Source: Candidatus Binatia bacterium
Lineage (GTDB): Bacteria; Desulfobacterota; Binatia; UBA9968
Reading direction: 5' to 3'
Assembly: GCA_041483675.1 (NCBI GenBank)
Contig: JBGPGE010000001.1
Location: forward strand, 868 to 64,867
Length of the DNA stretch: 64,000 bases
Part shown: piece by piece, positions 50,801 through 56,176 of the stretch
Layout of the letters: each line of letters opens with the position of its first letter
How positions within the stretch are numbered: position 1 is the stretch's first letter
The notes under the pieces: generated by a model
What the model was told of the DNA's origin: nothing
The model's database searches: none
The model's input: only the letters and a program-made list of their open reading frames with translations
Program-made: the position numbers and the translations under genes

Positions 50801-50860
50801 GAGCTTAGAGTTGAGAGCTTAGAGCTTTCGGCCCTTAGCTCTTAGCTCTCGGCTCTTAGC
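50801..50860. repeat. Heptamer-periodic array (gagctta/gagttga/tagctct units) filling the spacer between the methyltransferase and asnB-like genes
   Basis: About 8 degenerate 7-bp units lie directly upstream of the ATG at 50779. Confidence 0.6.
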
Positions 50861-50865
50861 ATTCC

Positions 50866-51618
50866 TTACTTCACACCGTACACGATCCACATGCTCTGCT
50901 GATATTCGCCGTAGCCGCGCCGCTCGGCATCCTCCTTCGGCAAGTAGTAGGTAGTGAGACACGGGTCGATGACGGAAAAGCCTTTCAGCAGGTCGAAATA
51001 TTCCTCGCGCGAAAAAAAATGCGACAGACCGATGTTGGTGAGATAGTAGCCGGAGCGGCGGTCCTGGAGCATCAAGCTGCCGGGGTCGTCGGGAAGCTGC
51101 GCGCCCTTTTTCTGCCGGAAGACCGTGTGGCCCCGGTCGAGCATGTAGCCGGCGAACAGGCCGCCCGGCTTGAGCAGCCGGCGAACCTCCCCGAAGGCCG
51201 ACGCGCGGTCGGCGCGGCTCAGATGTTGAAAGACGCAGGACTCGAAGATGCCGTCGAACGAGCCGTCGGGAAACGGCACCTCTGTAACCGATCCCTGGAT
51301 CAGCTTGCCGACGCGGTCGCGCAGCCGCGGCCGGCGCAGGTTCTGCTCGCAAAGGCCCAGCGCCGTCGGCGAGATGTCGATGCCACTGACTTCGATTCCT
51401 TTTTCGGCGAGCCAGACGAGATTCGGCCCGGCGCCGCAGCCCATTTCGAGAAAACTCAGATGTCTCATCTGAGCCGGCGTGTACCTCGATCTCAGATAGT
51501 ACGACGCCGTACGCACCAGCGCCTCGACGGGCGCGGTATTGTACGACTGATCCGTGATCTGGGCGGCGAACGATTCCTCCCAGGTCTGTTCCATTGCTTC
51601 GGCTGTGGCCGTTCTCAT
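50866..51618 (-). CDS. Class I SAM-dependent methyltransferase
   Basis: Motif I LEMGCGAGPN. 250 aa. Confidence 0.75.
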   Translation of the reverse strand: MRTATAEAMEQTWEESFAAQITDQSYNTAPVEALVRTASYYLRSRYTPAQMRHLSFLEMGCGAGPNLVWLAEKGIEVSGIDISPTALGLCEQNLRRPRLRDRVGKLIQGSVTEVPFPDGSFDGIFESCVFQHLSRADRASAFGEVRRLLKPGGLFAGYMLDRGHTVFRQKKGAQLPDDPGSLMLQDRRSGYYLTNIGLSHFFSREEYFDLLKGFSVIDPCLTTYYLPKEDAERRGYGEYQQSMWIVYGVK

Positions 51619-51686
51619 GACTGTTCTCCTCTTCCTGATCCATCCATAAGACGGACTCGTTTCGTCGTCGCCTTCGGGTCTCCGTT

Positions 51687-51731
51687 CCCTCTCCCTAACC
51701 CTCTCCCTGTGGGAGAGGGAATGGGTGAGGG
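51687..51731. repeat. REP-like double hairpin, copy 2 (CCCTCTCCC..CCCTCTCCC-TGT-GGGAGAGGG..GGGTGAGGG)
   Basis: Same element as 9276-9320. It overlaps the 3' end of the methyltransferase ORF 51695..52978. Confidence 0.6.
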
Positions 51732-52978
51732 GTAAGAAACGCCCGCAGCGTGTACTTGCGACTGGGCTCGCGCACGCGCTCCATCAGGCGGACGCCAAAG
51801 CCGGCGCGCGCCGCAAGCAGGCTCAACGACGCCGGGCTGAAGACGCAGCGGTGTTCGATGAAGAATTCCTCCCGCCCCGGTCCGTCTTGAGCCGCGGCCT
51901 CGCCGTCGGGCACCTCGACGTAAACCACTCCCCCCGGTTTCAGATGATGCTTGCTCTTGCCGAGCATCGCGATCGGGTCGGGCACGTGCTCCAGAACTTT
52001 GTTGAATGTGACGAGATCGTAGAGGCCGACGTCGTCGAGCTTCATGAAATCGCCCGTGATCGCCTCTATCCCCACTTCCTTCCGCGCGTGCTCCGCGGCC
52101 CGTGGGTCGGGATCGAGGGCCGCGCAGTTCCAGCCCGCCTCTTTCATTCTTTTGAGGAAGACGCACAGGCCCGAACCCACGTCGAGCACCTTGGGTCTCG
52201 CGTTGTCGCCGTATTTGAAGTCCGCCGCCTCGAACTGCTCGAACATGAACCGCACGATCCGCTCCACACGCCGGCAGTTGTCGGAGCGTTCGGCCGGCAG
52301 CGCCATGATCAGCCGGTAGGCGTCGGTCAGGCCGCGCTCGCCGTAGGTGGCCTGAACGTAGGCGCCTTCGTAGAGGGAATTCAGCGCCGCGTCTTGAACG
52401 TTCAAGTAGTGGCCGCAGCCGCCGCAGCGCTGGATCTCGCGGTAATACTTTCCCGACAGTTCCGGAAAAAACGTTTCGCCCGGCGGCGGGGCATCGTAGC
52501 GGAAGACGAGCGAGAAGTCGGACGAACCGCAGAGGGGACAATGCCAACCGAGTGTCAAGTGTCGAGTGTCGAGTGTCGAGTGTCGGATTTCGGATTTCGA
52601 GCCTTGAGTTTCGGATTTCGGATTTCGGATTTCGAGCTTATCGGGCAGGTGGAGCCATGAGAGAAGTTCCATTTTCTGAGTCTTGAGATAGGCGTGGAAC
52701 TGCTCCTCTTTGCCGTTTTCGACGAGCAATAGATAGCGCCGCTCGCCGCTTCGGACCAGCGCGGGCTTGAGACCAAGGCTCGGCAAGCGATGGTTGAGCG
52801 ACGGAGTCGCATAGTAGCCCCACTCCTTGCGCGCCACGTCGTACTCGGTCCCCGACGGTGTTACGAAGGTGACCTGCTCGTCCGTGTCGAGCTCGACGCG
52901 CCCGCAGTCTTTCAAATAAATCTCGCCGTTGTGTCCGACACCGAACACCCGCGGCGGCTCTATAGCTGTGAAGTTCAT
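51695..52978 (-). CDS. Methyltransferase with N-terminal extra domain, repeat-encoded linker, Zn-ribbon and class I SAM-MTase domain
   Basis: CPLCGS ... CGGCGH zinc-ribbon and MTase motif VLDVGSGLC. The linker EIRNPKSETQGSKSEIRHSTLDTRHLT is encoded by a heptamer tandem array. The C-terminal residues are encoded by the REP-like hairpin. Confidence 0.7.
   Translation of the reverse strand: MNFTAIEPPRVFGVGHNGEIYLKDCGRVELDTDEQVTFVTPSGTEYDVARKEWGYYATPSLNHRLPSLGLKPALVRSGERRYLLLVENGKEEQFHAYLKTQKMELLSWLHLPDKLEIRNPKSETQGSKSEIRHSTLDTRHLTLGWHCPLCGSSDFSLVFRYDAPPPGETFFPELSGKYYREIQRCGGCGHYLNVQDAALNSLYEGAYVQATYGERGLTDAYRLIMALPAERSDNCRRVERIVRFMFEQFEAADFKYGDNARPKVLDVGSGLCVFLKRMKEAGWNCAALDPDPRAAEHARKEVGIEAITGDFMKLDDVGLYDLVTFNKVLEHVPDPIAMLGKSKHHLKPGGVVYVEVPDGEAAAQDGPGREEFFIEHRCVFSPASLSLLAARAGFGVRLMERVREPSRKYTLRAFLTPHPFPLPQGEG
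52551..52636. repeat. Intragenic heptanucleotide tandem array (gagtgtc x4-5; ggatttc x6) inside the methyltransferase gene
   Basis: About 12 consecutive 7-bp units are visible. They lie between the N-terminal domain and the Zn-ribbon/MTase domain. Confidence 0.75.
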
Positions 52979-53051
52979 CCCCTTCTGCCTTCTGCCTTCT
53001 GCCTTCTGCCTTCTGCCTTCTGCCTTCTGCCTCCTGCCTCCTGCCTCCTGC
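52979..53051. repeat. Heptanucleotide tandem array (cttctgc x6, ctcctgc x3) occupying the entire 73-bp intergenic spacer
   Basis: The array spans exactly from the amidotransferase stop (53052) to the methyltransferase ATG (52978). On the coding strand it reads GCAGGAG/GCAGAAG repeats that end in an SD-like AAGGGG before the ATG. Confidence 0.8.
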
Positions 53052-56032: not shown

Positions 56033-56033
56033 A

Positions 56034-56066
56034 AATTTTGGATTTTCGATTTTAGATTTTGGATTA
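56034..56066. repeat. Heptamer array (Ngatttt units) immediately upstream of the asnB start codon
   Basis: aaatttt ggatttt cgatttt agatttt ggatt abuts the ATG at 56032. A similar motif occurs at 6405-6420. Confidence 0.6.
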
Positions 56067-56070
56067 AAAC

Positions 56071-56090
56071 GGGCGCGATGAATCGCGCCC
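56071..56090 (-). terminator. Rho-independent terminator after the neuB-like gene
   Basis: GGGCGCGA-TGAA-TCGCGCCC stem-loop followed on the minus strand by GTTTTAATCC. Confidence 0.6.
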
Positions 56091-56103
56091 CTACGCTTGG
56101 CTC

Positions 56104-56176
56104 TTACCTCTTTCTTTCTATCCTCTATCCTCCATCCTCGATCCTCCTGCCTCTTGCCTCCTGCCTTCTGCCTCCA
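56104..56176. repeat. Heptamer-periodic array (tatcctc/gatcctc/ctgcctc units) spanning the 3' end of the neuB-like gene
   Basis: About 10 degenerate 7-bp units. They encode the last ~18 aa of the ORF (..EAEGRRQEAGGSRMEDRG*) and the stop. Confidence 0.65.

What the first reader, a model, noticed from the sequence alone, without database searches (positions are those of the whole stretch)
50801..56176. Heptanucleotide-periodic tandem arrays fill gene junctions throughout the glycosylation island; candidate contingency (phase-variation) loci
Four arrays of degenerate 7-bp units occur within 5.4 kb:
- 50801-50860 lies upstream of the asnB-like ATG.
- 52551-52636 lies inside a methyltransferase ORF.
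- 52979-53051 is an entire 73-bp intergenic spacer made of CTTCTGC x6 and CTCCTGC x3.
- 56034-56066 abuts the asnB ATG, and 56104-56176 spans the neuB-like stop.

Related arrays occur at 61934-61958, 6405-6462 and 4701-4776. The unit length is consistently 7 (not a multiple of 3) while unit sequences differ. This argues for a replication-slippage-prone structural class rather than one mobile repeat. In Campylobacter the flagellin-glycosylation locus is the major site of homopolymeric-tract phase variation. Here heptamer arrays at starts, RBS spacers and in a coding linker could give analogous stochastic on/off switching or expression tuning of glycan-decorating enzymes.
Basis: seen in the sequence. 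Interest (0 to 1): 0.8.

Follow-up and report, generated by a model that had tools for sequence, protein, structure and literature searches.

The report
Seven-base repeat arrays between operon genes
The gaps between genes in this flagellin-sugar operon really are filled with tandem 7-base repeats, but the same repeats fill gaps in unrelated operons of this bacterial lineage (Binatia) and do not change length between close strains, so they look like a lineage-wide repeat class rather than on/off switches for surface sugars.

Summary
Eight period-7 arrays occur in the 64-kb window and none at any other period from 4 to 15.

The interpretation as contingency loci is mostly not supported:
- Arrays also lie in a histidine-kinase loop (4701-4776) and in an ABC-transporter junction (6405-6462). 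Relatives carry the same AAAATCN-type arrays in non-glycan operons.
- About 2 Mb of homologous loci from other phyla carry almost none, so this is a trait of the lineage (Candidatus Binatia-like), not of the island.
- Strains 98.2-99.95% identical show no 7-bp unit gain or loss in any array that could be compared.
- Most arrays are degenerate. They lie between co-transcribed genes or form C-terminal tails, where a length change would not switch a gene.

Syntenic relatives keep arrays at the same junctions with different units, and one uses 9-mers. The "intragenic" array sits at an ancestral two-gene boundary.

Best reading: these are heptanucleotide simple-sequence arrays like the short tandemly repeated repetitive (STRR) sequences of cyanobacteria. 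They expand in situ at unconstrained operon junctions and act as spacers or hairpins.

Only the near-perfect 73-bp array (52979-53051) remains a plausible length-variable tract. Short-read assemblies break inside it, so it could not be tested.

This is a new member of a known but unexplained kind of repeat.

The parts
50796..50860 (-). Two inverted half-arrays (sense: GCTAAGA-type units, then GCTCTAA-type units). They fill the 86-bp spacer 50780-50865 between the 250-aa methyltransferase (50866-51618) and asnB (48803-50779).
   Evidence: TRF. Scan. The RNA fold of 50777-50868 gives a -36 kcal/mol hairpin, z = -3.96, with 0 of 200 shuffles as stable. The sequence is unchanged in L006 and L007.
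52551..52634 (-). In-frame array (CGAAATC units, then CGACACT units) encoding residues about 115-142 of the 427-aa ORF 51695-52978. It links an N-terminal domain to the zinc-ribbon plus methyltransferase domain, and it lies at an ancestral two-gene boundary.
   Evidence: In other phyla the two parts are separate genes whose stop and start overlap (ATGA or GTGA). Linker length is 0-45 aa across homologues, with low-complexity peptides of the kind heptamer arrays encode. Loss of one unit gives a 138-aa truncation, gain of one unit goes out of frame, and loss of three units stays in frame.
52979..53051 (-). Near-perfect array, sense (GGCAGGA)3(GGCAGAA)7. It is the whole 73-bp spacer between the N-acetyl-sugar amidotransferase (53052-54206) and the 427-aa methyltransferase. 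It is purine-rich and Shine-Dalgarno-like.
   Evidence: TRF gives 10.4 copies at 98% matches. Unit count. Three short-read contigs (L001, L006, L007) end inside it. The orthologous spacer in L002 is only 10 bp, AAGCAGGCCG.
56035..56065 (-). Array, sense (AATCNAA)x4.4, directly abutting the ATG of asnB (54203-56032). It is A-rich, predicted unstructured, and has no Shine-Dalgarno motif.
   Evidence: It shares the run AAAATCTAAAATCGAAAATC (sense strand here) with 6437-6462.
56071..56090 (-). GC-rich terminator-like hairpin (GGGCGCGA-TTCA-TCGCGCCC followed by GTTTT) between the neuB stop and the AATCNAA array. It is not heptameric, but it is part of the same junction.
   Evidence: Terminator scan and RNA fold.
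56117..56175 (-). Array, sense (AGGCAGR)4(AGGATNG)4, encoding the non-conserved 19-residue C-terminal tail and the TAG stop (56118-56120) of NeuB (56118-57197).
   Evidence: The conserved NeuB sequence ends just before the array. The L003 orthologue has an 8-residue tail encoded by its own AGGCGGT array.
61935..61955 (-). Short array, sense (TCATCCY)3, in the 53-bp spacer between the HDOD/GAF histidine kinase (61980-63998) and the cytidylyltransferase (61222-61926).
6405..6462 (+). Inverted half-arrays (GATTTTN)n followed by (NAAAATC)n. They fill the 77-bp spacer between an ABC solute-binding protein gene (5082-6392) and its permease gene (6470-8149). This locus is outside the glycan island.
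   Evidence: The fold is a -16.8 kcal/mol hairpin, z = -1.4. Arrays of the same type sit at the orthologous junction in L172 to L175.
4701..4776 (+). In-frame arrays (AGGAATC x2.4, then CCCCAAT/TCCCAAT x6.7) inside the HATPase_c domain of a response-regulator/GAF/HisKA kinase (2280-5018). This locus is outside the glycan island.
   Evidence: The Pfam match spans 136 residues against 109 profile positions, which implies an insertion of about 25 residues.

Best explanation
These are heptanucleotide simple-sequence arrays of a class that is spread through the genomes of this lineage. The closest named relatives of the window's organism are Candidatus Binatia. The arrays are the same kind of element as cyanobacterial STRRs, the Xanthomonas and Nostoc GGGNATC repeats, Beggiatoaceae TAACTGA repeats and Geobacter GGGACCG elements.

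How they arise (inferred from comparative data): they expand and turn over in situ, by slipped-strand mispairing or unequal exchange of a local 7-bp seed. This happens at the few positions of tightly packed operons where sequence is unconstrained:
- from the last conserved codon of one gene to the start codon of the next;
- in flexible protein linkers and loops, where only in-frame lengths survive.

What they do (inferred): they are transcribed within polycistronic mRNA and behave as intercistronic spacers. Where two half-arrays are inverted (50796-50860, 6405-6462) they fold into hairpins. Such hairpins could stabilise the upstream message or attenuate read-through. The purine-rich array at 52979-53051 supplies Shine-Dalgarno-like motifs to the next gene.

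What is shown directly: the periodicity, the positions, the restriction to this lineage, the presence outside the island, and the stability between strains. The arrays are slow-evolving structural features, not rapid switches.
For: 1. Period 7 is uniquely enriched in the window: 8 runs against 0 for every other period from 4 to 15.

2. The trait belongs to the lineage, not to the island. 160 homologous loci from many phyla (1.36 + 0.69 Mb) hold only 6 period-7 runs, and 4 of those lie in two Binatia and two NC10-type loci.

3. Arrays occur outside glycan genes. In the window they lie in a histidine-kinase loop and an ABC-operon junction. In relatives they lie at ABC-operon junctions in L172 to L175 and in other spacers in L172 and L176. 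AAAATCN doublets run at about 120 per Mb in Binatia loci against about 10 per Mb in 2.02 Mb of controls.

4. Arrays persist at orthologous junctions while their sequence turns over. NeuB-AsnB, the methyltransferase linker and MT250-AsnB carry arrays in the window, L002, L170 and L171, and L009 (a short contig) carries one in the linker. The units differ, and L171 uses 9-mers at two of these junctions. Junctions with overlapping stop and start codons never carry arrays.

5. The 'intragenic' array sits where other phyla have a 4-bp gene overlap between two separate genes. The NeuB tail is encoded by an array.

6. There is a hint of in-situ origin. The orthologous 10-bp spacer in L002 (AAGCAGGCCG) resembles the GGCAGGA unit expanded in the window.

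7. Arrays are stable between strains: no unit gain or loss at 99.95%, 99.8-99.9% or 98.2% identity.

8. Literature precedent exists. Heptanucleotide long SSRs are the most abundant class in many genomes and are mostly intergenic (Mrazek et al. 2007, as summarised in PMC4679880; PMC4692102; PMC2700814; the Nostoc hyp-operon spacers in PMC2408588).
Against: - Within the window, array density is about 2-3 times higher in the island (5 junctions in about 22 kb) than elsewhere (2 loci in about 42 kb). Some local enrichment therefore cannot be excluded.
- Persistence at the same junctions across 55-80% protein identity, and the recurrence of one unit family (AAAATCN) at non-orthologous junctions, hint at selection or at spread between loci. 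A purely neutral slippage model does not predict either.
- No expression, RNA-end or read-level data exist, so the spacer and hairpin role is inference only.
- No mechanism explains why the unit is 7 bp.
Confidence: 0.62

Rival explanations
1. The arrays are contingency (phase-variation) loci. Hypermutable heptamer tracts would gain or lose units at high frequency and stochastically switch or tune flagellin-glycan modifying enzymes.
For: - The setting is a flagellin-glycosylation island.
- One array is near-perfect, with 7 + 3 units, and breaks three short-read assemblies.
- The in-frame array at 52551-52634 would inactivate the methyltransferase domain on gain or loss of one unit.
- Heptamer SSRs can drive phase variation. 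Examples are H. influenzae hmw (ATCTTTC)n (PMC12721329) and GGTGCCC in Pseudomonas pflu0185.
- Island density is 2-3 times higher than in the rest of the window.
Against: - No unit gain or loss in any comparable array across strains at 99.95%, 99.8-99.9% and 98.2% identity.
- Most arrays are degenerate (75-93% matches, at most 4 perfect copies). hmw tracts carry 11-63 perfect copies.
- Arrays lie between co-transcribed genes or in C-terminal tails. No array overlaps a promoter-like site.
- In the 73-bp array a copy change leaves the sequence next to the ATG unchanged.
- Arrays of the same kind and the same unit family occur in a kinase and in ABC-transporter operons.
Confidence: 0.13
2. The arrays are selected cis-regulatory platforms. 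A nucleic-acid-binding protein with a 7-nt register would coat them to control translation or decay of individual cistrons. A cold-shock-domain or S1-type protein on RNA is one candidate, as MacGregor proposed for TAACTGA. A DNA-binding protein is another. This would explain the limited repertoire of units.
For: - The AAAATCN family recurs at non-orthologous junctions in several genomes.
- Arrays persist at the same junctions despite sequence turnover.
- Arrays abut start codons.
- There were 0 SNPs in the 135-bp array region between strains that differ at 1.8% of sites, against about 2.5 expected.
- B. subtilis CspB binds one heptamer per protein (cited in PMC4679880).
Against: - Units differ widely between arrays and between orthologous sites.
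- Unit orientation relative to transcription is not consistent: AATC-type units are sense in some arrays and antisense in others.
- One relative uses 9-mers at the same junctions.
- Predicted RNA structure is heterogeneous, ranging from hairpin to unstructured.
- No candidate binding protein was identified.
Confidence: 0.17
3. The arrays are footprints of a mobile or copy-paste element, that is, one repeat family inserted at many sites, rather than products of in-situ expansion.
For: - A 20-nt stretch is identical in 6437-6462 and 56035-56065.
- The contig L006 joins a foreign sequence through a (GGCAGAA)4 tract.
- A genuine dispersed double-hairpin element coexists in the same genomes.
Against: - There are no terminal repeats, no target-site duplications and no conserved flanks.
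- Units differ between loci.
- Array ends grade into local sequence, and the orthologous short spacer resembles the expanded unit.
- Arrays inside ORFs are in frame.
Confidence: 0.06

Closest known systems
Cyanobacterial STRRs (short tandemly repeated repetitive heptanucleotide sequences) and the heptamer repeats in Nostoc/Anabaena operon spacers
   Same: 7-bp units in tandem. Several unit families per genome. Concentration in spacers within and between operons. Some form hairpins. Function unknown (PMC4692102; the Nostoc hyp-operon spacers with ttgtcag x3 and similar, PMC2408588). The window unit CCCCAAT/TCCCAAT is the reverse complement of Nostoc GGGGATT/GGGAATT.
   Different: The phylum is different (Binatia-like, about 60% GC). 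Arrays here also run into coding ends and linkers. Genome-wide copy numbers are unknown.
Heptanucleotide long simple-sequence repeats of Mrazek et al. 2007, including Xanthomonas GGGAATC repeats
   Same: Period 7 is over-represented relative to other unit lengths. [quoted passage not shown] They are not tied to pathogenicity genes (PMC4692102; summary in PMC4679880).
   Different: Xanthomonas has essentially one G-rich, quadruplex-prone family. Here there are many families, most of them not G-rich.
Beggiatoaceae TAACTGA direct repeats (MacGregor 2015)
   Same: Short heptamer arrays of 2-6 copies, placed directly upstream of start codons in intergenic regions. A role in translational regulation has been suggested.
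   Different: That system has a single dominant heptamer with a fixed orientation relative to the downstream gene. Here units and orientations vary.
Haemophilus influenzae hmw1A/hmw2A (ATCTTTC)n phase-variable 5'-UTR tract
   Same: A transcribed heptamer tract upstream of a surface-structure gene. The RNA hairpin involves the repeats. Graded control by copy number is demonstrated (PMC12721329).
   Different: hmw tracts are perfect, hold 11-63 copies, and vary between and within strains. The arrays here are 3-10 copies, mostly degenerate, and invariant between the strains available.
Intercistronic REP-type hairpins such as the one between malE and malF in E. coli (from general knowledge, not tested here)
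   Same: A stem-loop between a solute-binding-protein gene and its permease gene (6405-6462), and between other cistrons (50796-50860). Such a hairpin could protect the upstream mRNA.
   Different: The stems here are built from inverted heptamer arrays, not from a conserved REP consensus. No stability data exist.

Membership tests
SSR contingency / phase-variation locus | A long tract of perfect repeats, so that it is hypermutable | tested here: inconclusive
   Met only by 52979-53051 (7 perfect units plus 3 variant units, 98% matches). The other arrays have 75-93% matches and at most 4 perfect copies.
SSR contingency / phase-variation locus | Length polymorphism among closely related strains or within a population | tested here: not met
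   No 7-bp gain or loss in four window arrays at 99.95% identity, in three arrays across four assemblies at 99.8-99.9%, or in the ABC-junction arrays at 98.2%. The perfect array could not be compared because contigs break inside it. Read-level data are unavailable.
SSR contingency / phase-variation locus | Tract placed so that a unit change alters expression (5' coding region, promoter spacer or 5'-UTR) | tested here: inconclusive
   52551-52634 would frameshift the methyltransferase. The others are intercistronic or form C-terminal tails. No array overlaps a promoter-like site.
SSR contingency / phase-variation locus | Enrichment at surface or host-interaction genes relative to the rest of the genome | tested here: inconclusive
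   Density in the island is about 2-3 times that in non-island DNA of the window and of relatives. Arrays are nevertheless common in ABC-transporter and kinase genes. No whole genome is available.
Heptanucleotide long SSR / STRR-like repeats | Tandem 7-bp units over-represented relative to other unit lengths | tested here: met
   8 runs at period 7 against 0 at every other period from 4 to 15.
Heptanucleotide long SSR / STRR-like repeats | Many loci across the genome, mostly non-coding, characteristic of a lineage | tested here: met
   Arrays occur in island and non-island loci of the window and of 8 related loci. They are nearly absent from about 2 Mb of homologous loci of other phyla. A whole-genome census was not possible.
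Heptanucleotide long SSR / STRR-like repeats | A limited set of unit families recurring at independent loci | tested here: inconclusive
   The AAAATCN family recurs at four or more non-orthologous junctions and is 12-fold enriched over controls. Most other units were seen only once in the sample.
Intercistronic mRNA-stabilising hairpin (REP-like) | A stable stem-loop in the transcribed spacer between cistrons | tested here: met
   50777-50868 folds at -36 kcal/mol, z = -3.96. 6390-6472 folds at -16.8 kcal/mol, z = -1.4, which is weak. The other arrays are unstructured.
Intercistronic mRNA-stabilising hairpin (REP-like) | A measured effect on the stability or ratio of the flanking cistrons | not testable with these tools
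   Needs transcript mapping or reporter assays.
Known structured RNA families (Rfam) | A match to a curated covariance model | tested here: not met
   No matches at gathering thresholds across the whole window.

The most novel reading that the evidence does not exclude
Binatia may use heptamer arrays, and in some members 9-mer arrays, as a selected and evolvable layer of intercistronic control. A small repertoire of units such as AAAATCN would be recognised in a 7-nt register by an RNA- or DNA-binding protein. The near-perfect GGCAGAA array at 52979-53051 would then act as a graded, copy-number-dependent tuner of a flagellin-glycan methyltransferase. That would make it a contingency-like device in an uncultured environmental phylum.
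Probability: 0.12. Interest if true: 0.7.

Novelty: new member of a known kind. Interest (0 to 1): 0.35.

Why it matters
An excess of heptanucleotide repeats has been known in bacteria since the 1990s and 2000s but remains unexplained. This locus adds an uncultured phylum-level lineage (Binatia). It also gives an unusually clean comparative picture:
- arrays stay at the same operon junctions while their sequence, and even their unit length, turns over;
- arrays run into coding ends;
- one array lies in frame between two domains that are separate genes in other phyla.

This series could be used to ask whether such arrays are neutral slippage products or selected spacers.

For annotation, it warns that C-terminal tails, linkers and apparent gene fusions in these genomes can be encoded by repeats, and that short-read assemblies break at these arrays.

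It does not currently support phase variation of flagellin glycans in this organism.

Tried and rejected
- Exact-protein look-ups for the amidotransferase and the solute-binding protein as I had delimited them found nothing. Look-ups through database representatives worked.
- Genome and metagenome scans with the 427-aa methyltransferase found no relative closer than 63% identity. Finer-scale comparison of the island arrays was therefore limited to the 99.95% strain and to relatives at 55-83% identity.
- The 83%-identity relative (contig of P0002) has no DNA available. Only its gene spacings could be read. They show a 420-aa methyltransferase, 7 residues shorter than the window's 427 aa, which is what loss of three units would give, and spacers of 89, 81, 68 and 54 bp.
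- The look-up of P0121 returned only contigs already held.
- The foreign 5' end of L006, joined through (GGCAGAA)4, could be a chimera or another locus. It has no match in the window, so it cannot count as evidence of copy-number variation.
- Rfam gave no match. The promoter scan found no promoter-like site in any array.
- A common RNA structure for all arrays was rejected, because the folds range from a strong hairpin to unstructured.
- A single mobile repeat was rejected, because there are no conserved boundaries and unit order differs between loci.
- A shared GGAT core in many units was noticed but not tested statistically across genomes.
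Full report
**1. Observation**

- 50796-50860
- 52549-52634
- 52981-53053 (10.4 copies, 98% matches)
- 56035-56065
- 56117-56175
- the three 'related' sites at 61935-61955, 6406-6462 and 4701-4776

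At one fixed threshold the window has 8 period-7 runs and none at any other period from 4 to 15. The periodicity is therefore not chance. Four arrays are reproduced base for base in independent assemblies (L001, L006, L007), so they are not assembly artefacts.

**2. Gene context**

All genes from about 41.9 to 64 kb lie on the minus strand. They form a nonulosonic-acid and flagellin-glycosylation island:
- an HDOD/GAF kinase, a cytidylyltransferase, a GFO/IDH/MocA-family oxidoreductase, a DegT aminotransferase, an epimerase and a GNAT acetyltransferase
- NeuB (56118-57197)
- AsnB-type amidotransferase (54203-56032)
- N-acetyl-sugar amidotransferase (53052-54206)
- a 427-aa methyltransferase (51695-52978)
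- a 250-aa methyltransferase (50866-51618)
- a second AsnB (48803-50779), followed by further modification genes

Flagellin lies at 36103-36969 and FliD at 34608-35948.

Each array runs from the end of sequence constraint in one gene to the start of the next:
- The NeuB array encodes a non-conserved 19-residue tail and the stop codon.
- The AATCNAA array abuts the asnB ATG.
- The GGCAGRA array is the complete 73-bp spacer from the stop codon to 3 nt before the ATG.
- The 50796-50860 array fills most of an 86-bp spacer.

**3. The 'intragenic' array lies at an ancestral gene junction**

In Nitrospira, NC10, Vicinamibacterales, Rhodocyclaceae, Leptolyngbya and Tectomicrobia the N-terminal domain (about 131-147 aa) and the methyltransferase are separate genes. 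Their stop and start codons overlap as ATGA or GTGA.

In the window's clade they are fused. The linker varies from 0 to about 45 residues. It has the low-complexity composition that heptamer arrays encode when translated, for example RQKAKGKRQKAK and STQHSALSTQH. L002, L009, L170 and L171 all carry heptamer arrays at exactly this point, each with different units.

**4. A trait of the lineage, not of the island**

The closest named relatives are Candidatus Binatia.

I fetched 160 loci homologous to the methyltransferase from many phyla (1.36 + 0.69 Mb). They contain only six period-7 runs at the threshold that gives eight in the 64-kb window. Four of those six lie in two Binatia and two NC10-type loci.

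Within the window, arrays also occur outside the island:
- in the HATPase_c loop of a histidine kinase (4701-4776);
- as inverted half-arrays filling the spacer between an ABC solute-binding-protein gene and its permease gene (6405-6462).

Contigs of Binatia relatives found through that solute-binding protein show the same pattern:
- L172 to L175 carry inverted (GATTTTN)n/(NAAAATC)n arrays at the same junction.
- L174 carries another pair at the permease-ATPase junction.
- L172 has arrays in two further spacers.
- L176 to L178 lack them at the ABC junction.

AAAATCN doublets run at about 120 per Mb in these loci against about 10 per Mb in controls. Array density in non-island DNA is roughly 90 per Mb, against about 170-270 per Mb in the island. 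That is at most a modest enrichment.

**5. Stability between strains**

- Contigs from another assembly of the same species are 99.95% identical to the window over 15.3 kb. They show no indel in the arrays at 50796-50860, 52551-52634, 56035-56065 or 56117-56175.
- Four assemblies of the sister species (L002 to L005, 99.8-99.9% identical) differ by a single 1-bp indel in an A-run. No 7-bp unit is gained or lost in their three arrays.
- L173 and L174 differ by 138 SNPs over 7.5 kb (98.2% identity). Their ABC-junction arrays are identical.
- Arrays do differ at about 90% nucleotide identity (L172 against the window) and beyond.

So they evolve on a species timescale, not a clonal one.

The exception in kind is 52979-53051. 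It is near-perfect, and three short-read contigs terminate inside it. One of them (L006) continues into unrelated sequence through a (GGCAGAA)4 tract. Whether its copy number varies cannot be decided from assemblies.

**6. Positional persistence with turnover**

Across the syntenic island loci, arrays recur at NeuB-AsnB, at the linker and at MT250-AsnB:
- The window, L002, L170 and L171 carry arrays at all three sites, although the NeuB-AsnB array of L170 is degenerate and its short contig does not reach MT250-AsnB.
- L009 is a short contig and shows the linker array only.

Junctions with overlapping stop and start codons never carry arrays. Units differ between genomes, and L171 uses inverted 9-mer arrays at two of these junctions.

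The amidotransferase-methyltransferase spacer is 10 bp in L002 (AAGCAGGCCG) and 73 bp in the window. The expanded unit GGCAGGA resembles the short ancestral-type spacer, which suggests expansion in situ.

**7. Structure and signals**

- The 50777-50868 spacer folds into a -36 kcal/mol hairpin (z = -3.96) made of the two inverted half-arrays.
- The ABC spacer gives a weaker hairpin.
- The NeuB-AsnB spacer has a GC-rich terminator-like hairpin (56071-56090) followed by the unstructured A-rich array.
- The purine-rich arrays are unstructured.

No array overlaps a promoter-like site, and nothing in the window matches Rfam. There is no common RNA fold. Unit orientation relative to transcription is not consistent.

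**8. Consequences of a unit change**

In the 427-aa ORF, loss of one unit truncates the protein at 138 residues. Gain of one unit puts the methyltransferase domain out of frame. Loss of three units stays in frame. This array could therefore switch the enzyme in principle. However, its longest perfect run is four copies, and it is invariant in the strain available.

In the NeuB tail and in the intercistronic arrays, a unit change alters only tail or spacer length. In the 73-bp array the sequence next to the ATG is unchanged by copy number.

**9. Comparison with known systems**

An excess of heptanucleotide long SSRs, mostly intergenic, is documented for many bacteria. Function is unresolved in every case:
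- Mrazek et al. 2007, as summarised in PMC4679880;
- Xanthomonas GGGAATC and Nostoc GGGGATT (PMC4692102);
- Geobacter GGGACCG elements at 49 sites (PMC2700814);
- Nostoc hyp-operon spacers (PMC2408588).

The Xanthomonas study also found repeats between the same genes in related species, with extensive variation in length and sequence and no link to pathogenicity. That is the pattern seen here.

It holds 11-63 perfect copies and varies between and within strains (PMC12721329). The arrays here fail that test.

No paper in the searchable library links Binatia to tandem repeats.

**10. Verdict**

The arrays are best filed as a new lineage's example of the known but unexplained class of heptanucleotide SSRs (STRR-like). 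They accumulate at unconstrained operon junctions and probably act as spacers or hairpins.

Interest is moderate to low for the original claim. It is somewhat higher as a comparative model for how such arrays arise, persist and even fuse genes.

Noticed in passing
window 51686-51735 (minus strand), overlapping the last ~13 codons of ORF 51695-52978: A strong non-heptameric GC-rich hairpin (CCCTCTCCC...GGGAGAGGG nested in a longer stem). The fold of 51616-51740 is -50.4 kcal/mol, z = -3.4. The methyltransferase ORF reads into it (...PHPFPLPQGEG*). It looks like a REP-type element at the MT427-MT250 junction.
   Followed up: partly
window 44215-44328 and 29872-29985; also inside L172 3340-3640: A dispersed element of about 105 bp, 90% identical between the two window copies. 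It has two hairpins (GTCATGCCCGCGAAAGCGGGCATCCAG and CTGGATTCCCGCTTGCGCGGGAATGAC) and sits in two intergenic regions. A related sequence is inserted into the ABC-junction array of L172. It is MITE- or REP-like.
   Followed up: partly
window 51695-52978; L025, L029, L032, L052, L061, L065 around 10380-10400: The 427-aa methyltransferase corresponds to two genes that are separate and translationally coupled in many other phyla. In the Binatia-like clade a repeat-encoded linker bridges the join.
   Followed up: yes
L171 6160-6330 and 12010-12130: A syntenic relative carries inverted arrays of 9-bp units (ATAGGGTCY and AGACTCAAN) at the NeuB-AsnB and MT250-AsnB junctions, where the window has 7-bp arrays.
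   Followed up: partly
L173 13063-13231 versus L174 7496-7679: Identity between two strains drops from 98.2% to 82.7% exactly at the array-filled permease-ATPase junction. The two strains carry unrelated arrays there (AATTAAA against GATTTTA/AATCCAA). This suggests a recombination breakpoint at the array.
   Followed up: partly
window 4730-4776, complementary strand: The complement of the CCCCAAT/TCCCAAT array is a run of G3-4 tracts with 4-nt loops. It is the same unit as the quadruplex-forming Nostoc GGGGATT repeats and lies on the template strand of the kinase gene. It was not analysed for quadruplex potential.
   Followed up: no
L171 8163-8695: An HNH-endonuclease gene and a small ORF lie on the opposite strand, between asnB and the amidotransferase. 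In the window and the other relatives those two genes overlap by 4 bp.
   Followed up: no
L006 1-53 (JGI Ga0534150_0005505): The contig starts with sequence unrelated to the window and joins it through (GGCAGAA)4-GGCAGGA. This is either an assembly chimera through a second GGCAGAA array elsewhere or a structural variant.
   Followed up: partly
contig of P0002 (JGI 3300041967), genes 3061-3576 and 3618-4964: In the 83%-identity relative the AsnB orthologue is called as two ORFs (171 + 448 aa), which suggests a frameshift or pseudogene. No DNA was available to check.
   Followed up: no
window near 41508: Both short-read contigs L006 and L007 end at the same window position, 41508, inside gene 41402-41749. 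No obvious repeat was seen there.
   Followed up: partly
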